Origin: Candidatus Hodarchaeota archaeon
Lineage (GTDB): Archaea > Asgardarchaeota > Heimdallarchaeia > Hodarchaeales > Hodarchaeaceae
Direction of reading: 5' to 3'
Assembly: GCA_016839785.1 (NCBI GenBank)
Contig: JAEOTQ010000054.1
Location: 1-24,833, forward strand
DNA: 24,833 bases
Below the pieces are notes generated by a model. It saw nothing but the letters and a program-made list of their open reading frames with translations, did not search any database and was not told the origin of the DNA. Numbering within the stretch: position 1 is the stretch's first letter; every line of letters starts with the position of its first letter. Of the stretch, positions 10,570 to 16,686 are shown piece by piece. The translations under genes and the position numbers were made by a program.

Positions 10570-13185
10570 TTATACTCTGAGAAATTGGCTTACTAGTAAT
10601 CCCTCTAGAAGCTGCTTTTCTTGATTGTGGGAAGGTAAGCATTCTGCAACAGCTTGACAGAATGGGCCAAAGATATTTTGAACAGGTTTGATTGATGAGT
10701 TGAATAAATAAGATAACGAATCTTTGTCATTCATTTTCCATGCAAGGACCGCTAGATGCATAAGATCCACTATTTGTTGACTTTCATGATTAATTTTCGT
10801 TCGCTGTAGTGCTGACTTAATAGTTACTTGAGAACCTTCTATTTTTACAAATCCATCAGCTTTCGAATGTTGTTTCAAATCAATCCCATATGCTTGAGAG
10901 AGCTTCTGTACCTCTCCATAATTAATGATTGATTCTCCATATGTCCATCGAAAAGCGAGATAAAATTGTCCTGTTTCGTCTAGTATTGCATTTTGAGGAA
11001 TATCAGTTAAAATTTGGAATAAAAAGTCTGTTGATATTTTTCTGATATGTGCTAGCTGGGCGGATACAGGTACCTTTTCACCTGAATATTTCAATATTGT
11101 ACGAAATCGACTGAAAATCTCCATTCCAGGACCAATCGCTGAAATAAAAAAGTCCCCTCCTCGTATTCCGTCAGCCCAGAATCGTTTTAGACGAGAGAAA
11201 ATGTTCTTCTCTACTTCTGCGATTACCTCAGGTAGGTAACCTTCAGATTGTTGTTCTCCTTTACGACAGACTAAATATATTGACGAAGCTAACGCAGCTG
11301 AGGTTCGGGCCCGTAATCGTGCCTTCATTTCTGTATGGATAGGCCAGGAAGAGGTTATTGTAAACCCTGCTTGGATTAGGGCCTCTAACATAGTTTCCCA
11401 CCCTGAAGTGGATTTATGAGCATACACGAACAGAGCGATTCCACTTGGTGTAAGAACTCGATGAAATTCCTGGAAAGCTTGTGTGAGCATAGTTTCAAAG
11501 AATTGTTTTGGATTCTCTTGGCGGCCTTTATTTGCTACAATCTCTAATGTTTTTGGTGTCAAAGGGGTGGAAAATAACTGGGGAAATATATCACCAAGGG
11601 CTCGCTTAAACCAGACATAAAAAAAATCAGATAAATCTGAGTAGGGAACGTTGTCATAATATGGAGGATCTGTAATAACCGCATCAAAATAACCATCTGG
11701 ATAATCTAGTTTAGTTGCGGACGCCTGTTCGACAATTGCTTTCGATTGGGCTTTCCATGAATTATTCTGAAGATATCGGGTCACCCATTCTGTCTGTTTT
11801 GACCAATCACCATTTGCTCCAGAAAAAACATTCAGTTCTACATAGTCCCATACCATCGGAAGAGCAGTTCGACCAAATACATGTTCAATTTTTTCTCCAT
11901 ACGCGTTATAAATTACAAGGTTTGAACATTTGTCAGTTAATCGTCCAAGAATGATGGTTAAATATGACAGTATAATCTGGTCTAAGCTTATTTGACTCTG
12001 ATGAACATCAGGGTAATTTTTATCTGCCCAGTGACGGATAGAAGAAGCACAAGATTTTATTTCTCTGAGAAAGAAGATTAGAGACAGTAATTGCCTTTCA
12101 TTGAAGAGATCCTTCCATTTAAGGAGCCCATAATTCTGAACGCTAAAACCCAAGGTTCCGATAGGGGGTAACCATTCATTGGGAATAAGCTCCTGAAACT
12201 GGTTGTCACCTTTTATTTTCTCCTTTAGAAAAGAATGAGCATTTTCGTAGGTTCGTAAATCCTGATCTGATGCAGGACGATAGATTTTTCCAGCCTTTTT
12301 TTGATCACGTAAAATAACAATTGTCATCTGTTGACCGAGTTTTTCCTCTTTAGCAAATTTTCGAATGGTACTCGACGAGACAACTTGTTGACAGAATAAA
12401 CATCGCACAGTAGCTTTTGATATTGTCCCCTCTGATGGATTAAAGTCAATTAAGTCATCTTCTTGAATAACAAATGTAAGTGGTGTATCTGAATCTTGAT
12501 TGATTATAGGTTTGTAGGCAATACGACGTTTGTTTGTCCTTGCTAACCAGAAGTGCTTAATTAGAGGAATTATATGATCACAGTGAGGATTGGCACATGG
12601 AATTGTCCTCGCCCACAAATAGCCAATGGGGATATTTCCATTTGGATCTGCAGGATAAAATCTGTTGAGTGATTTCTTGACCTGAATTTGGATCCTATCA
12701 GCCCATTGGGAAACTATTTCGGCTAGATTTGAAAATCCAAGAGTTTGAGGCCATTCTAAAGTGGCCTTGGAAATTAGAACAGCCATTGGATTTAAATCAG
12801 AGGCATAAGTTTCACAACCCAATCGCACTGCTTCCAGAGGAATAGACCCACCACCTGAAAAGGGATCTAAAAGCTTTGGTGGATGTGGTTGCCACTGAGC
12901 TTGAATTAATTTCCTTCCTTTTTCAATAATTTCGTTATCTGGAATTTTTACGGTATTCCAAGGAGAAATTTCTGAAAGTAATTGAAGTAGGTCTTCTTGA
13001 TCGGTCTCTGAATTTGGAAGCTCAAGTAAGGATGCTAATATGGTTGCTCTAGAACTTGCAAGAGGACGACGAGCCCACCAAAGATGTAAAGTACTTGGAT
13101 GCCCATGTCTTACACTTTTTTCATGACTAGAGGCTTTGGAAATATCCATCAAAGGAAGATTCCATTCAATCACTCGTTTATCCAA
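10570..13185 (-). CDS. DUF1156-family adenine-specific DNA methyltransferase
   Basis: LHLWWARRPLASSRA (DUF1156), motif I DPFSGGGSIPLEA, motif IV TDPPYYDNV, internal Zn ribbon (CANPHC, CLFC), SSWPIHTE, ALASSIYLVCRK. Confidence 0.92.
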   Translation of the reverse strand: MDKRVIEWNLPLMDISKASSHEKSVRHGHPSTLHLWWARRPLASSRATILASLLELPNSETDQEDLLQLLSEISPWNTVKIPDNEIIEKGRKLIQAQWQPHPPKLLDPFSGGGSIPLEAVRLGCETYASDLNPMAVLISKATLEWPQTLGFSNLAEIVSQWADRIQIQVKKSLNRFYPADPNGNIPIGYLWARTIPCANPHCDHIIPLIKHFWLARTNKRRIAYKPIINQDSDTPLTFVIQEDDLIDFNPSEGTISKATVRCLFCQQVVSSSTIRKFAKEEKLGQQMTIVILRDQKKAGKIYRPASDQDLRTYENAHSFLKEKIKGDNQFQELIPNEWLPPIGTLGFSVQNYGLLKWKDLFNERQLLSLIFFLREIKSCASSIRHWADKNYPDVHQSQISLDQIILSYLTIILGRLTDKCSNLVIYNAYGEKIEHVFGRTALPMVWDYVELNVFSGANGDWSKQTEWVTRYLQNNSWKAQSKAIVEQASATKLDYPDGYFDAVITDPPYYDNVPYSDLSDFFYVWFKRALGDIFPQLFSTPLTPKTLEIVANKGRQENPKQFFETMLTQAFQEFHRVLTPSGIALFVYAHKSTSGWETMLEALIQAGFTITSSWPIHTEMKARLRARTSAALASSIYLVCRKGEQQSEGYLPEVIAEVEKNIFSRLKRFWADGIRGGDFFISAIGPGMEIFSRFRTILKYSGEKVPVSAQLAHIRKISTDFLFQILTDIPQNAILDETGQFYLAFRWTYGESIINYGEVQKLSQAYGIDLKQHSKADGFVKIEGSQVTIKSALQRTKINHESQQIVDLMHLAVLAWKMNDKDSLSYLFNSSIKPVQNIFGPFCQAVAECLPSHNQEKQLLEGLLVSQFLRV

Positions 13186-13359
13186 AAAATTCCCGCATTC
13201 AGATTTATATGCTAAAAACAGCTGATTTTTAATAAACGGGGTATAAATATATTGCCACTGGATTGATTTAAGAAATTTACAGCTGATTAGATAGGATTTA
13301 TTGTTAGGGGTTAAATGAGTTTTTCTTATGATATGTTTGAAAAAACGAAATTTTAGGGA

Positions 13360-13965
13360 TTAATCGTCACAGGATCCCTCAGCCTCTGCAAGTCGGGGTG
13401 AGGAAGCCGAAATAGCATCGGCACGAGTTAGTAAGGTTCGTATCTCGTTCACAACAGATTCTTCAATTTCAATCTGATGTTTAAGGAAAGCCTTACGATA
13501 TTGCTTGACAAACTCATCCTTAGTTTCTTCCGACCAGCCATATTTTTTTCGATATTCCGCATAGAGAAGATAAGCACGGGTTGATCTTTCTACCCAGCGG
13601 TCAAGATAATGAAAATCTTCAGTAAAAACAAGAACTTGGGGAACTTTTTCACCATTATTGACCTTGGTTACCATAAAGGGGAGATGATCCTTATTCATAA
13701 GTGTCATGTTTATGTTAGGACTTTGTTCGGCGATGTGGGTAAGAATAGGGACATTTGTTTGAGAATCCCAACACCAAGTGGTTGCTAGCACTAGAAGATT
13801 AATGGGATACTTAAGTTCAATTCGGAAAAACTCCGGAGAGTGTTTCTTTGCGCTTTTGTCATGGTAGTATAGGAAACGTTTACGGTCATCTTCCGTAGCA
13901 TCCTTTAGAAAGTCTTCGAAGGACATTCCTTTATTGAAAAAATTGTATGTGATTCGATCAATCAT
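13360..13965 (-). CDS. Thioredoxin-family protein with CxxS (WCWDS) site
   Basis: LVLATTWCWDSQTNVP, cis-Pro loop KVPQVLVF, WVERS. ATG 13965 follows AGGTGG; the ORF track starts at GTG 13977. Confidence 0.82.
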   Translation of the reverse strand: MIDRITYNFFNKGMSFEDFLKDATEDDRKRFLYYHDKSAKKHSPEFFRIELKYPINLLVLATTWCWDSQTNVPILTHIAEQSPNINMTLMNKDHLPFMVTKVNNGEKVPQVLVFTEDFHYLDRWVERSTRAYLLYAEYRKKYGWSEETKDEFVKQYRKAFLKHQIEIEESVVNEIRTLLTRADAISASSPRLAEAEGSCDD

Positions 13966-14020
13966 TTCTACGTCCACCTGTTGAAAAAAAAAGAGAAAGA
14001 AAAGATGTTAAAAATTTAAT

Positions 14021-14185
14021 TTAATGCTTGAAACTATGAGTATTAGTGAGTATAGTTCTATAGTGGTAATAGAATGCAATCAAATAAGCAATGGTTTTTA
14101 GTATCATAAACATTCCTGCTATTGGATAATTTGCTGTAAAGAAAATGGTTAAACTGTAAGTAATAAATGACACATTAACCACCAA
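14021..14185 (-). pseudogene. Possible remnant or small hydrophobic membrane ORF (54 aa)
   Basis: LVVNVSFITYSLTIFFTANYPIAGMFMILKTIAYLIAFYYHY...; two hydrophobic stretches, no strong start or SD, in-frame stop just upstream. Confidence 0.35.
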
Positions 14186-14376
14186 CTGGCAAGATAATTA
14201 ACTGATTCGATGGTATCTAGGTTTTACATCTCGTTTTCCACTCTTAAAAATACTATAGATCTTTCAATTTGCAGTTTATATATTTCTTTAGATGCCAATC
14301 GTTTACGAGTTACATATTAGTAATTCTGATTCCCTGTACTCACCAGTATAAGGAAATATACTACAAGATATTGCCT

Positions 14377-15465
14377 TTATTTCTTTATACTCCGAGCTTG
14401 TAGGAATTGTTCCATTTCTTGAGTTTTCCTCTCTTCTTCTTTTTCTATTTCTTCTTGTACTTTTCGTTCTTGTTCTTTGAATCGTTCCATGATATTTAAT
14501 AATTCTCCACTCATCATAGTCAATTTATCTGACGCCACGGTTAAATCATTCATTTCAGCCGTTTGCTCCTCTGTCGCTGCTGCTACTTCTTCGCTGGATG
14601 CACTGAATTCTTCTGATTGAACGGCAAAACCTTGAAATGTTTCATGGAGACTGGCAACTTTCTCATTGAGATTTTGGATGATTTCTTCGATTAGATTTCG
14701 AATTTCCTTAGTGTTCTTATTTGTCTCATCAGCTAATCTACGCACGTTGTCAGCTACAACACTGAAACCTCGACCAGATTCTCCTGCTCTTGCGGCCTCT
14801 ATTGCCGCGTTTAATGCTAAAATATGCGTTTGCTTAGCTACTCCTTCAATTATTTTTATTATACCTTCAATATTCTTCAAAGAGGTACCTATGATGTTTC
14901 TAATTTCATCGATGCTCTCTAGTCCTTGATTTGCATTATCTGTTTGAGTTGCCGCACCACGACTAATCTGTTGAATGGTACTAGTTATTTCCTCAGTTTG
15001 GGTATTCACATCATACGCAGTCTTTGCGACACCTTCAGCTGAATTTTTAAGTTCACTAGAAGCATCTTTCAACGTATTAACCATAGATATATTGCTATTC
15101 AATAATTTTAACATAGAATTTTGTAAATTACCAATTTCATCTGATCTATCAGTCATATGAATGTTTACTGATAAGTTACCTTTTGTAAATTCTTCTGCGG
15201 CATCGGATAGTTCAACCAATGGTTCGAATATATTTTTGAATATCCGAAAATTGACAACAACAACAACCACTGCTGAAAAGATGATACTAATAAGAGATAA
15301 CCCAAATAACGATCGAAGAAATGACTCATCTAAAGTAAATCCAGTAGTGGAGATGGAAGAAATTAAAAAAACGACTAGATTTAATAATATCAAAGTAATA
15401 ACTAATAAAACATTAATTACTATTGCACGTGTTAAATGACCCCCTCTATCTGAGTTAGAAGCCAT
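14377..15465 (-). CDS. Methyl-accepting chemotaxis protein (2 TM, HAMP, MCP signalling domain)
   Basis: HAMP motif EPLVEL...GNLS...RSDEIGNL; hairpin tip [31 protein letters not shown]; methylation-like EE/EQ pairs. Confidence 0.93.
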
Positions 15466-15626
15466 TTTAATATCTCACAAAACAAAAAATTTAGTTCAAA
15501 GAACCCTTCAATCAATTTTCACCTCCCTTTCCTAATAAACATTGGCGAACAAATTAGAGATAATGAGATTTAATGCTCATCCACAGAGGTAAGTTTGATT
15601 TAGAAGAATTTTGTTTTTCCAAATCA

Positions 15627-15986
15627 CATGACTAAATTTGTCAGACAACTATTATGAAAATAATTCTGGACAGGATGAGTCACACATCCACTATCCGGCA
15701 GGAAAGCAACACGAGAACGATTGCTTTCGATTAGGACTACTTGAATCAAATCTACTTGCGATACTCCAAACCTCAATGCAATTCATCAATGTGAGCCATT
15801 CTTCTCTTGCCTTTGACGGGTAACTCGTCTAACGTAGTTACAAGGGAAGCTGACCGAAAAGCGATGGAACGATTTTTGTCATCACCTCGGGGCTAAAGAA
15901 GTAAGGGAGGGAGGCCTTTTAAACTTGTGACTGAGAGAGGTCACCGAATACCAGCTCTCTCGCTTTGTCGGACAAAAATGATCATG
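15627..15986 (+). ncRNA. Candidate structured non-coding RNA (or MITE-like element), unclassified
   Basis: 22-bp imperfect terminal inverted repeat (17/22 identical), several hairpins with G-U pairs and a GAAA tetraloop favouring the + strand, 3' H-type pseudoknot. No convincing ORF. Confidence 0.5.
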
Positions 15987-15999
15987 CTTAATATCTCGC

Positions 16000-16024
16000 A
16001 AAAAAGGAAGGGGAAAAATCCCCT
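16000..16024 (-). terminator. Hairpin + oligo-T terminator of the PDO gene
   Basis: Minus strand reads AGGGGA-TTTT-TCCCCT followed by TCCTTTTTT, just after the stop codon. Confidence 0.6.
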
Positions 16025-16029
16025 CAGAA

Positions 16030-16686
16030 CTAAGCTAATGCTTCACGAACTTTGCTCATCAATGTTTGAGGTGGTACACCACCGACAACATCCCATGAAT
16101 CATTAATTACCGTTTTTGGTACCCCTTGGACTTGGTATTTCATAGATAATTCTTGAAACTCGGTCGCTTCGACCATATCCGCAATTATATTTTCATTAAG
16201 CATGGCTAGCTTGAATGCATTCAATACTGCGGTTGGACAATAAGGACACGTTGGAGTGACAAATACCTGCAGATGCAGAGGTTTATCAATGGCTAAAATC
16301 TCTTCAACAAGTTCAGGGTCCAAATCAGAACCAGTGGTTTTTCCAGACATGATGATACTTTCAATTAAACTCCCGAATTCATATCCAGAAGGAATACCAT
16401 AGAAGCGAATAAGTCCTTTACCTTGGCCTTCAACAACGATCGCTGGATGACGTTCAATCTTGAATTTTTTAGCCTCATCGCTGTTGATATCGCATTCGCA
16501 AGCTTTTAAAATCACTTTGTCGGATTGTGCAGCTACTTGCTGGACTAAGTCCAGGGTCTCATTGCATAATAAACAGTGATCTTTTCTAGTAAACATGTGG
16601 AGTGTAACGTCTGTTTCAATGGATTGAAACATACCTTTTATTTCGTTGAGAATTTTATCTTCTATCCTAACTTTGTGTTCAGACAT
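16030..16686 (-). CDS. Protein disulfide oxidoreductase (PDO, two thioredoxin folds)
   Basis: CLLC and CPYC sites, RFYGIPSGYEFGSLI, VFVTPTCPYCP, VQGVPKTVIN; AGGTGA SD. Confidence 0.93.
   Translation of the reverse strand: MSEHKVRIEDKILNEIKGMFQSIETDVTLHMFTRKDHCLLCNETLDLVQQVAAQSDKVILKACECDINSDEAKKFKIERHPAIVVEGQGKGLIRFYGIPSGYEFGSLIESIIMSGKTTGSDLDPELVEEILAIDKPLHLQVFVTPTCPYCPTAVLNAFKLAMLNENIIADMVEATEFQELSMKYQVQGVPKTVINDSWDVVGGVPPQTLMSKVREALA

What the first reader, a model, noticed from the sequence alone, without database searches (positions are those of the whole stretch)
15627..15986. Candidate novel ~350-nt structured RNA between the MCP and PDO genes
Seen on the + strand: the ends pair (TTTGTCAGACAA 15637-48 with TTGTCGGACAAA 15965-76). 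Helices: ATTAT-GAAA-ATAAT (15651-64); CTGGA/TCCGG enclosing GGATG/CATCC (15666-98); GAAAGCAA/TTGCTTTC (15702-28); a junction closed by CTTCTCTTG/CAAGGGAAG (15801-49) holding GACGGG/CTCGTC and TAAC/GTTA; CCGA..GATGG/TCATC..TCGG (15854-90); AGCC/GGCT (15794-97/15891-94) can close both domains. G-U pairs and the GNRA loop favour the + strand, and the segment looks more GC-rich than other spacers here. It lacks the signature motifs of SRP RNA, RNase P RNA and tmRNA. Inference: an undescribed Asgard ncRNA or ribozyme, antisense to both neighbours.
Basis: partly seen in the sequence, partly recalled or inferred. Interest (0 to 1): 0.8.

Follow-up and report, generated by a model that had tools for sequence, protein, structure and literature searches.

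The report
Gene-less TnpB mini-transposon with guide-RNA scaffold
The supposed new 350-base RNA gene is one copy of a short, protein-less jumping element cut down from a transposon that encodes the RNA-guided nuclease TnpB; it keeps that nuclease's guide-RNA scaffold on the opposite strand, which is a known kind of element.

Summary
Window 15627-15986 is exactly one copy of a ~360-bp repeat. There are 5 full copies in this genome and 34 across five genomes of one Asgard genus. Ends are sharp, flanks unrelated, and CATG sits at both ends. Empty sites hold a single CATG, including an empty allele of this very locus. The "paired ends" are 22-bp terminal inverted repeats shared with a 1.4-kb tnpB-only insertion sequence. 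The element is an internal-deletion derivative of that IS. It keeps the left end with a TATA-like box, a 37-nt piece of tnpB, and the last 117 nt of the IS.

That last part (15627-15751, minus strand) is the omegaRNA scaffold. It has three covarying helices plus a loop-to-3'-end pseudoknot, and wobble pairs favour the tnpB-sense strand. Rfam gives no hit. The folding z-scores are only -1.57 on the plus strand and -2.16 on the minus strand.

The kind is already described (PATE-like omegaRNA elements), and this scan met the same family before in another genome. Two things stay open: the enzyme that moves the element, and a conserved central module that folds better on the + strand.

The parts
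15627..15986 (-). One complete copy of the ~360-bp non-autonomous element. The strand given is the tnpB/omegaRNA sense.
   Evidence: Own-genome matches cover exactly these bases. Boundaries are sharp and flanks unrelated in 5 own copies and in 34 copies from 5 genomes.
15627..15648 (.). Right-end (RE) terminal inverted repeat CATGACTAAATTTGTCAGACAA, including terminal CATG 15627-15630 and the palindrome TTGTCAGACAA.
   Evidence: The motif CATGAYYNNNTTTGTCNGACAA (up to 1 mismatch) occurs 30 times in G000, 67 in G002 and 63 in G014; the reversed-pattern control gives 0.
15965..15986 (.). Left-end (LE) terminal inverted repeat, read on the minus strand as CATGATCATTTTTGTCCGACAA, including terminal CATG 15983-15986.
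15627..15751 (-). omegaRNA scaffold / RE module, homologous to the last ~117 nt of the tnpB insertion sequence.
   Evidence: Covariance model R1 scores 134.9 bits, E 1.2e-28, minus strand. Homology to the IS is shown. Covariation is shown.
15647..15665 (-). Hairpin P1, the guide-proximal stem-loop.
   Evidence: On alignment A4, 96.6% of cells are paired and 5 of 7 pairs changed on both sides. One pair reads C-G 34 / U-G 20 / U-A 2 of 60.
15666..15698 (-). Stem S2 (outer and inner helix). Its loop 15679-15684 can pair with 15628-15633 next to the guide, forming a pseudoknot.
   Evidence: The pseudoknot is 98.9% paired on the tnpB-sense strand against 81.9% on the other strand. Five one-sided changes are kept as wobble or Watson-Crick pairs; three cells are broken.
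15702..15728 (-). Stem S3.
   Evidence: All 13 pairs show changes on both sides; 69% of cells are paired. MAFFT and the covariance model misalign some subfamilies.
15734..15743 (-). Near-invariant single-stranded motif CAAGUAGUCC at the 5' edge of the scaffold.
   Evidence: Invariant or nearly invariant columns in A2 and A3.
15801..15849 (.). Central conserved module, derived from the RuvC-I coding region of tnpB. Its function is unknown.
   Evidence: It matches IS positions 761-797 at 86%. Third-codon positions in tnpB are constrained here. The closing helix shows compensatory changes between the tnpB and MITE versions. The MITE versions fold better on the + strand.
15917..15923 (-). TATA-like box (minus strand TTTAAAA), homologous in position to the box upstream of tnpB in the full IS. 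Predicted promoter for a minus-strand transcript.
   Evidence: Conserved columns in A1 and A5. elrc 48-71 matches IS 88-107. Promoter activity is inferred, not shown.
15607..15626 (-). Predicted guide segment: the flank immediately 3' of the RE on the minus strand.
   Evidence: Inference from the TnpB/omegaRNA architecture (Meers et al. preprint, passages read). No transcript ends are available.

Best explanation
The segment is a non-autonomous (MITE/PATE-type) internal-deletion derivative of a 1.4-kb tnpB-only insertion sequence. That IS family was found only in the window's own genus (Asgard/Hodarchaeales, per earlier scan notes) among the 83 genomes of its class that were searched.

Shown:
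- It is multi-copy, with sharp ends and unrelated flanks.
- It shares 22-bp inverted ends, a promoter-region piece, a 37-nt tnpB piece and the 117-nt 3' module with the tnpB IS.
- It sits at a CATG, which appears at both ends of filled sites and once in empty sites.
- Its 3' module carries a covarying three-helix-plus-pseudoknot RNA structure on the tnpB-sense (window minus) strand.

Inferred:
- A transcript starts downstream of the retained TATA-like box, runs through the scaffold and ends in about 16-20 nt of flank that serve as guide.
- A TnpB made by a full-length copy elsewhere binds this omegaRNA in trans.
- The complex cuts the empty CATG + flank site after excision, so the element is copied back by homologous repair.
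- The element is moved by an enzyme supplied in trans that recognises the inverted ends. That enzyme is not identified.
For: Copy number and boundaries: 27 hits; 5 full-length; 8 of 41 genomes, all in one genus; 34 full copies; CATG at the left end in 29 of 34 and at the right end in 28 of 34.

Parent IS: the minus-strand remnants are TnpB (Pfam OrfB_IS605 6.3e-13, Cas12f1-like_TNB 4.6e-25). Relatives carry intact 419-439 aa frames. Shared LE/RE and internal pieces are shown.

Mobility: the filled site G014:C89 corresponds to empty sites G002:C82 and G000:C153 with one CATG (or CGTG). An environmental contig joins 15617 to 15983 with CCAAATCA between, which is the empty allele of this locus.

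RNA structure:
- A3 (47 sequences): 84.3% paired against 77.7 +/- 0.4 shuffled (0 of 500 shuffles as high) and 30-44% when slid; covariation score 0.192 against 0.095.
- A4 (60 distinct sequences): 82.8% against 73.8; covariation score 0.254 against 0.109.
- Strand: 84.3% paired in sense against 79.7% antisense; pseudoknot 98.9% against 81.9%.
- Module MFE is better in sense for 35 of 50 sequences.
- The RNAalifold consensus is -30.15 kcal/mol with 51 pairs on the minus strand, against -20.93 kcal/mol with 34 pairs on the plus strand.

Literature: Meers et al. preprint 10.1101/2023.03.14.532601 (passages) states that PATEs 'often encode omegaRNAs' that TnpB must act on in trans.
Against: - No transcript is shown. 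The only RNA-library data are contigs, which give no strand, ends or level and may include DNA.
- No demonstrably intact tnpB of this family is assembled in G000. The best copy is split over C206/C84 and has a frameshift near codon 35. The genome is 84.5% complete.
- The ends are symmetric inverted repeats, unlike canonical IS200/IS605. No Y1 TnpA was found in 4 of 5 carrier genomes. No transposase was found with these ends.
- Several wobble positions favour the + strand: S2 outer T-G in 31 of 33 copies, and the central module.
- The copies are related, so the shuffle controls overstate significance.
- The whole-element MFE z-scores are weak.
Confidence: 0.8

Rival explanations
1. A passive, decaying transposon relic. 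The element is only DNA that a trans-acting transposase can still move. The scaffold structure is inherited from the parent IS and no longer makes a functional RNA.
For: No tnpB of this family is shown to be intact in G000. Copies diverge 13-31% from the window copy. No transcript evidence exists. Truncated and 33-bp terminal-only forms exist.
Against: The scaffold keeps pairing through compensatory and wobble changes among MITE copies themselves, not only between MITE and IS. The TATA-like box and the full 355-368 bp length are retained across 34 copies in 5 genomes.
Confidence: 0.15
2. One reading: a ~350-nt + strand structured ncRNA or ribozyme whose ends pair.
For: The central module in MITE copies folds better on the + strand: MFE -12.3 against -8.9 kcal/mol, 23 of 25 copies, 95.1% against 87.5% paired. 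S2 outer has a near-invariant T-G pair.
Against: The element is multi-copy and mobile. The end pairing is a transposon TIR also present on the tnpB IS. The + strand consensus fold is poor: -20.93 kcal/mol, and only one hairpin covaries. The helices at 15854-15890 are not conserved. The z-score is -1.57. The pseudoknot and P1 wobble pairs form only on the minus strand.
Confidence: 0.03
3. The MITE, or at least its central module, makes a + strand RNA antisense to tnpB mRNA and omegaRNA. This RNA regulates or competes with the parent element.
For: The central module is complementary to the most nucleotide-constrained stretch of tnpB: third-position identity 0.86-0.93 against 0.70 overall. Its preferred folding strand flips between the tnpB versions (sense, 13 of 14) and the MITE versions (antisense, 23 of 25).
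Against: No + strand promoter motif was seen when reading the + strand consensus by eye. There are no strand-resolved reads. The flip rests on two or three positions that are fixed in each group, so it may reflect few evolutionary events.
Confidence: 0.07
4. The insertion has been taken over by the host as a promoter or leader for the downstream chemotaxis-receptor gene (14377-15465, minus strand).
For: The element lies 161 nt upstream of the MCP start codon. Its predicted outward transcript runs in the same direction as MCP.
Against: The same element sits in 34 unrelated contexts. The locus is polymorphic for presence and absence. The whole MCP+MITE segment is missing in 4 relatives, so nothing indicates a conserved host role.
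Confidence: 0.04

Closest known systems
PATE-like, protein-less IS200/IS605 elements that encode omegaRNAs (Geobacillus stearothermophilus; Meers et al. preprint 10.1101/2023.03.14.532601, passages read)
   Same: No protein gene. Ends are shared with tnpB-carrying elements. The guide-RNA scaffold is retained and would need TnpB supplied in trans.
   Different: Here the ends are 22-bp inverted repeats flanked by CATG, not asymmetric subterminal hairpins. No Y1 TnpA was found in 4 of 5 carrier genomes. The host is an archaeon. A tnpB-internal module is also retained.
Haloarchaeal PATEs and internally deleted IS1341-type (tnpB-only) elements (Haloquadratum walsbyi; PMC3119063, passages read)
   Same: [quoted passage not shown] Very short 'terminal-only' forms exist in both (52 bp there, 33 bp here). 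Mobility occurs although no obvious transposase is present.
   Different: Those PATEs are described as lacking inverted terminal repeats. This family has them.
TnpB omegaRNA/reRNA of ISDra2 and relatives. The structure papers PMC10097598 and PMC8612924 were seen only in search listings; the architecture is recalled.
   Same: The position is the same: it overlaps the 3' end of tnpB and runs to the right end, with the guide taken from the flank. It has several stems, and a pseudoknot is predicted next to the guide (the pseudoknot of ISDra2 is recalled; a guide-flanking stem-loop is reported).
   Different: There is no detectable sequence or Rfam similarity. The cognate TnpB has glycine in place of the RuvC-II glutamate. 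This resembles the 'rearranged' RIIr type described in PMC10691335 (section passages); I did not place this TnpB on that paper's tree.
TnpB/Fanzor genes carried by TIR-flanked, non-IS605/IS607 transposons (IS630-linked branch with symmetrical ends, PMC10691335; Fanzor elements with TIR + TSD, 10.1101/2023.08.09.552727; review PMC13565253)
   Same: Symmetrical inverted ends, a short fixed sequence at both junctions, and tnpB as the only gene in the non-autonomous unit.
   Different: No DDE_3/IS630 transposase was found (0 of 5 genomes) and no Cas1 (0 of these 5). IS4/IS5-type DDE genes are present in 3 of 5 genomes, but none of the 13 loci examined carries these ends. The junction motif is CATG, not TA.

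Membership tests
Non-autonomous (MITE/PATE-type) derivative of a tnpB insertion sequence | Many copies with identical sharp boundaries in unrelated flanks | tested here: met
   5 full and 22 partial hits in G000. 34 full copies in 5 genomes, each with its own pair of flanks; two copies (G014 and G002) share a right flank.
Non-autonomous (MITE/PATE-type) derivative of a tnpB insertion sequence | Ends and internal pieces shared with a protein-coding parent element | tested here: met
   LE 1-22, elrc 48-71, 142-178 and 244-360 match the 1417-bp tnpB IS.
Non-autonomous (MITE/PATE-type) derivative of a tnpB insertion sequence | No protein-coding capacity | tested here: met
   The longest ORFs are 61 aa (+) and 50 aa (-). 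The 50-aa frame has no Pfam match. Copy lengths vary from 355 to 368 bp.
Non-autonomous (MITE/PATE-type) derivative of a tnpB insertion sequence | Presence/absence polymorphism with a precise empty site | tested here: met
   (G002:C82 and G000:C153 empty). (a contig of run X10 lacks 15627-15982 at this locus).
TnpB omegaRNA | Lies at the 3' end of tnpB, same strand, and runs to the transposon right end | tested here: met
   TnpB frames read into the module in C122, C1, C163 and in intact relatives.
TnpB omegaRNA | Conserved secondary structure supported by covariation on the tnpB-sense strand | tested here: met
   Caveat: the sequences are related, and A4 was fitted to the model.
TnpB omegaRNA | An RNA is made, carries a flank-derived guide and is bound by TnpB | not testable with these tools
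   Only contigs of RNA libraries were available, which give no strand or ends.
Canonical IS200/IS605 (Y1 HUH, peel-and-paste) | No terminal inverted repeats; asymmetric subterminal hairpins | tested here: not met
   The element has a 22-nt TIR, including the linker between CATG and the palindrome. The review PMC13565253 states that the family lacks TIRs.
Canonical IS200/IS605 (Y1 HUH, peel-and-paste) | Y1 TnpA available in the genome | tested here: inconclusive
   PF01797 was found in 1 of 5 carrier genomes (G019 only). The genomes are 84.5-93% complete.
Canonical IS200/IS605 (Y1 HUH, peel-and-paste) | Insertion beside a fixed 4-5 nt motif without target duplication | tested here: inconclusive
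   CATG occurs once in empty sites and at both ends of filled sites. This fits TAM = transposon-end motif, but equally fits a 4-bp duplication.
TIR/DDE cut-and-paste MITE | A transposase gene bounded by the same TIRs | tested here: not met
   DDE_3: 0 of 5 genomes. DDE_Tnp_1: 3 of 5 genomes, but 0 of 13 loci examined carry the TIR. Every TIR pair I checked by distance, of the matches listed, brackets tnpB only.
RNase P / SRP / tmRNA / any Rfam family | Match to the family covariance model | tested here: not met
   0 matches at gathering score in the window. The best sub-threshold match is 26 bits against a threshold of 39. The genome's RNase P RNA is elsewhere: G000:C43:10542-10902, 128.4 bits.
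Archaeal C/D-box sRNA | C box (RUGAUGA) plus D box (CUGA) about 50-60 nt apart; Rfam score | tested here: not met
   A conserved GGUGAUGA lies on the minus strand (15879-15886), but I saw no downstream CUGA in the minus-strand sequence or in A5. The snoR14 and snoR12 matches score 17.7 and 15.2 bits against gathering scores of 40 and 39.

The most novel reading that the evidence does not exclude
This could be a TnpB transposon of a type distinct from IS605/IS607. It has 22-bp inverted ends, a CATG junction motif and an unidentified mobilising enzyme, and it was found only in the window's own Hodarchaeales genus among the genomes searched. Its mini-copies would be stand-alone guide-RNA genes. 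In addition, they would carry on the opposite (+) strand a folded module antisense to an unusually nucleotide-constrained structured stretch inside tnpB mRNA. That would be a MITE-encoded regulator or competitor of its own nuclease.
Probability: 0.12. Interest if true: 0.6.

Novelty: new member of a known kind. Interest (0 to 1): 0.3.

Why it matters
The result removes a false lead: there is no new ribozyme or RNA gene here. It documents, at one locus with a matching empty allele, a mobile guide-RNA-only offshoot of a TnpB transposon in Asgard archaea.

Two features are worth a specialist's look:
- The ends are symmetric, with CATG junctions, and no recognisable transposase accompanies them.
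- A roughly 50-nt module inside tnpB is constrained at synonymous sites, is retained in the mini-copies, and changes its preferred folding strand there.

The second point bears on how TnpB elements are regulated. The first bears on how TnpB came to ride on TIR-type transposons, as Fanzor does in eukaryotes.

Tried and rejected
- Rfam at gathering and at E<=10 gave nothing usable.
- Looked for target-site duplications beyond CATG in 5 and then 34 copies: none.
- Empty site for the window's own locus in relatives: not available, because the whole 2-kb MCP+MITE segment is missing there.
- Empty site for the C41 copy in G019: the flanks are too diverged to resolve at base level. One search found both flanks of a G014 copy in G002 and in G000; I did not inspect these at base level.
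- Search for the mobilising enzyme: Y1 TnpA, serine recombinase, Cas1, IS630-type DDE, IS4/IS5-type DDE. A 2.6-kb interval between two ends in G002:C8 turned out to be an ordinary 840-aa host gene next to a 33-bp terminal-only element.
- C/D-box sRNA reading of the GGUGAUGA motif: rejected.
- Base pairing between the central module and the CAAGUAGUCC motif or the S3 loop, checked by eye: only 5-8 bp and not conserved. Dropped.
- A regex-based split of the scaffold into helices mis-parsed several rows and skipped 6 of 56. I use only its whole-module figure.
- RNA-library contigs (X10, X14, X6): parts without cover and contig ends at 15806 and 15845 are not interpreted, because DNA run X1 breaks at the same repeat boundaries.
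- Small shares of words in other runs are not used for habitat.
- Flank preference: A/C before the LE CATG in 28 of 32 ends, and a purine after the RE CATG in 43 of 55. The effect is weak and the copies are not independent, so I report it only as a hint of an asymmetric target.
- Supplementary tables of the cited papers were not seen and could list this TnpB branch or its ends.
Full report
**The observation.** The two ends form a 22-nt inverted repeat, 15627-15648 and 15965-15986, 77% complementary. The segment is richer in G+C (0.40-0.45) than other spacers in the window (0.27-0.31). As a single molecule it folds little better than shuffled sequence. The plus strand gives -91.3 kcal/mol, z -1.57, with 8 of 100 shuffles as good. 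The minus strand gives -97.7 kcal/mol, z -2.16, with 5 of 100. Rfam finds nothing at gathering score in the whole window. At E<=10 around the segment there are only weak, sub-threshold matches.

**It is a repeat.** A search of the window's own genome matched exactly bases 15627-15986. My blastn gave 27 hits at E<=1e-3, as follows:
- 5 full-length copies (C4, C41, C60, C117, C235; the four other copies are 79-87% identical to the window copy)
- 1 covering positions 1-222
- 2 covering 1-145
- 8 covering 1-116/117
- 4 shorter pieces of the same end
- 5 pieces of the other end
- 2 internal 36-nt pieces

Many hits lie at contig ends. Aligned with flanks, the copies begin at CATGACTAAATTTGTCAGACAA and end at TTGTCGGACAAAAATGATCATG, and the flanks are unrelated. 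In 41 related genomes the element occurs in 8, all in the window's own genus. I collected 34 full-length copies of 355-368 bp: G000 5, G002 16, G014 10, G019 2, G005 1. CATG is at the left end in 29 of 34 and at the right end in 28 of 34. No further duplication of flanking bases is visible.

**The parent element.** The hits that share only positions 1-117 continue into a different sequence. On the minus strand that sequence encodes TnpB remnants with RuvC and zinc-ribbon motifs (Pfam OrfB_IS605 and Cas12f1-like_TNB). Relatives carry intact copies with open frames of 419-439 aa. These sit in a unit of about 1417 bp whose only gene is tnpB. The unit is bounded by CATGATCAAATTTGTCTGACAAC ... GTTGTCTGACAAATTTAGTCATG, the same inverted ends.

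The 360-bp element, read on the minus strand, aligns to this IS in four pieces:
- bases 1-22 (left end)
- 48-71 (the region of a TATA-like box about 30 nt upstream of the tnpB start codon)
- 142-178 (IS 761-797, inside tnpB)
- 244-360 (the last 117 nt)

It is therefore an internal-deletion derivative.

The TnpB aligns to Cas12f and ISDra2 TnpB structures. It has glycine where the RuvC-II glutamate normally sits. This resembles the 'rearranged' catalytic site described by Altae-Tran et al., PMC10691335 (passages of section 8). I did not place this TnpB on that paper's tree.

**It moves.** A copy in G014:C89 has orthologous empty sites in G002:C82 and G000:C153.
- Filled: ...GAAAAA CATG [element] CATG AACATAAT...
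- Empty...GAAAAACATGAACATAAT... (CGTG in G000)

For the window's own locus, a 151-nt contig from an RNA-labelled library (run X10, depth 2) runs from 15586 to 15617. It then has CCAAATCA and continues at 15983. This is an allele without the element and with a single CATG. The contig may come from DNA in that library, but it shows that the locus is polymorphic.

In four relatives the whole stretch of about 14028-16035 (MCP gene plus element) is absent. There, the homologues of 12526-14027 directly abut 16030 onward.

**The RNA structure.** The last ~125 nt of the IS and of the mini-copies (window 15627-15751, minus strand) form three helices (S3, S2, P1). The S2 loop (GUGACU) can also pair with AGUCAU next to the element's end.

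On a MAFFT alignment of 47 distinct modules:
- 84.3% of cells pair, against 77.7 +/- 0.4 in shuffles (0 of 500 as high) and 30-44% when the partners are slid.
- 20 of 38 pairs show changes on both sides.
- The covariation score is 0.192, against 0.095 shuffled and at most 0.099 slid.

A covariance model built from this alignment (R1) scores the window copy at 134.9 bits on the minus strand. On the model-fitted alignment of 60 distinct sequences:
- 82.8% of cells pair, against 73.8.
- The covariation score is 0.254, against 0.109.
- P1 is 96.6% paired, with 5 of 7 pairs changed on both sides.
- One P1 pair reads C-G 34, U-G 20, U-A 2.

The copies are related, and the second alignment is fitted to the model, so these controls overstate independence.

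**Which strand.** Counting G-U as allowed on the tnpB-sense strand gives 84.3% paired. The mirror rule for the window's plus strand gives 79.7%. The pseudoknot gives 98.9% against 81.9%. Whole-module MFE is lower in sense for 35 of 50 parsed sequences; 6 of 56 were skipped by my parser. The RNAalifold consensus for whole elements is -30.15 kcal/mol with 51 pairs on the minus strand (32 sequences). On the plus strand it is -20.93 kcal/mol with 34 pairs (34 sequences).

Against this, the S2 outer helix has a near-invariant T-G pair on the plus strand (31 of 33 copies).

The scaffold's position, its strand and the helix next to the guide match what is described for TnpB omegaRNAs. A guide-flanking stem-loop is described in passages of 10.1101/2023.08.09.552727; the ISDra2 pseudoknot is recalled.

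R1 finds the module in 8 of 83 genomes of the class, all in the one genus: G000 19 hits, G002 37, G014 41, G019 10, G004 5, and one each in G005, G011 and G013.

The helices at 15854-15890 are 65% and 50% paired. AGCC/GGCT is 70% paired, mostly through G-U. The junction at 15801-15849 is almost invariant.

**The central module, unexplained.** This ~49-nt block corresponds to the tnpB codons for NLVTTSDGLLVKGG, just after the RuvC-I GIDLG motif.
- In 7 intact tnpB genes (2 of 9 dropped: one has a stop, one is truncated), third-codon-position identity is 0.86-0.93 here against 0.70 overall. Only the omegaRNA-overlapping tail is as high. Other equally conserved peptide stretches show 0.61-0.77.
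- The 42-nt core is nearly invariant in 15 tnpB genes of this family, 81-100% identical to the 37-residue probe (61-83% to the 231-aa fragment). It is absent from 3 more distant ones.
- Comparing 14 tnpB versions with 25 MITE versions, the closing helix has 5 of 8 pairs changed on both sides with pairing kept. The module as a whole is 88.1% paired, against 83.6 shuffled (0 of 500) and 28-44% slid. Most of these changes separate the two groups, so they represent few events.
- The tnpB versions fold better in sense: -12.7 against -7.9 kcal/mol, 13 of 14. The MITE versions fold better on the window's plus strand: -12.3 against -8.9 kcal/mol, 23 of 25.

I have no tested explanation. An antisense role toward tnpB or a DNA-level site are possibilities.

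**What moves it.** The ends are symmetric, including the 7-nt linker between CATG and the palindrome TTGTCNGACAA. This is unlike canonical IS200/IS605, which has no TIRs (review PMC13565253, passage). The searches gave:
- Y1 TnpA (PF01797): 1 of 5 carrier genomes.
- Resolvase: 3 of 5, but not with these ends.
- Cas1: 0 of these 5 (3 of 22 in the genus).
- DDE_3: 0 of 5.
- DDE_Tnp_1: 3 of 5, with none of the 13 loci examined bearing the end motif.

The genomes are 84.5-93% complete, so absence is not shown.

The end motif occurs 30, 67, 63, 11 and 5 times in G000, G002, G014, G019 and G004. The reversed-pattern control gives 0. The base before the left-end CATG is A or C in 28 of 32 distinct ends. 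The base after the right-end CATG is a purine in 43 of 55. This is a weak, asymmetric preference.

**TnpB supply in this genome.** All assembled tnpB copies of the family in G000 are truncated or run off contigs. C206 and C84 overlap by 119 identical bases and would give a full gene, but with a frameshift near codon 35. Whether this copy's RNA has a partner protein in this organism is open.

**Expression.** Two RNA libraries (X10, X14) and two doubtful ones hold parts of the stretch, but only as contigs. One 350-nt contig of X10 (depth 17.2) covers a related copy from the central module through the right end and 121 nt beyond. DNA run X1 breaks at the same repeat borders, so nothing can be said about strand, ends or level.

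**Comparison with what is known.**
- Protein-less PATE-like relatives of IS605 elements that 'often encode omegaRNAs' needing TnpB in trans are described for Geobacillus (Meers et al. preprint, passages).
- Internally deleted IS1341-type elements and terminal-only forms are described for Haloquadratum (PMC3119063, passages).
- TnpB in transposons with symmetrical ends is known for an IS630-linked branch and for Asgard Cas1-linked groups (PMC10691335), and for Fanzor elements.

My literature searches listed no paper that, by title or abstract, treats this Asgard family. Supplements were not seen.

Earlier notes of this scan describe the same family in another genome and reach the same reading: CATG sites, no mobilising enzyme, an extra folded module. 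I read them after my own analysis. The assignment of the genome to Hodarchaeales comes from such notes and was not tested here.

**Verdict.** This is a real feature and an ordinary kind: a new member of the guide-RNA-bearing, gene-less TnpB mini-transposons. It is not a new RNA class.

Noticed in passing
window 14022-16043: The roughly 2-kb stretch holding the MCP gene and the element is absent in G014:C176, G002:C100, G019:C289 and G004:C20. There, homologues of 12526-14027 directly abut 16030 onward. An 8-nt direct repeat TAATGCTT sits at 14022-14029 and 16036-16043, right at the end of the thioredoxin-fold gene.
   Followed up: partly
window 15467-15482 and 15988-16003: A 16-nt direct repeat TTAATATCTC(A/G)CAAAA. 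One copy abuts the MCP start codon and the other abuts the element's left end. Meaning unknown.
   Followed up: no
window 15801-15849; loci in alignment A6: The central module is constrained at synonymous sites inside tnpB. Its preferred folding strand flips between the tnpB versions (sense) and the MITE versions (antisense).
   Followed up: partly
L129:3000-3032 (G002:C8:64499-64531); also G002:C35:1462-1494 and G002:C50:11147-11179: 33-bp 'terminal-only' forms in which left and right ends are fused through the shared palindrome (CATGATCAAATTTGTCTGACAATTTTAGTCATG). They resemble the 52-bp terminal-only PATEs of Haloquadratum.
   Followed up: partly
window 15879-15886 (minus strand GGUGAUGA): A nearly invariant C-box-like/Shine-Dalgarno-like motif sits just downstream of the predicted transcription start of the mini-copies. 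It may be a remnant of the tnpB ribosome-binding site and start codon. It is preceded by a small hairpin with U-G/C-G alternation on the minus strand.
   Followed up: no
G000:C206:1-1122 and G000:C84:1-415: Two contig ends overlap by 119 identical bases and together would give a full-length tnpB IS of this family, with an apparent frameshift near codon 35.
   Followed up: partly
intact tnpB genes, e.g. L064:877-2151: The RuvC-II glutamate is replaced by glycine (iGYn aligned to mEDl of Cas12f 9nzq), while RuvC-I D and RuvC-III D are kept.
   Followed up: partly
window 10570-13185 (minus strand): An 871-aa protein with DUF1156 and methyltransferase domains. Not examined further.
   Followed up: no
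G000:C43:10542-10902: The genome's archaeal RNase P RNA (RF00373, 128.4 bits; gathering score 84).
   Followed up: yes
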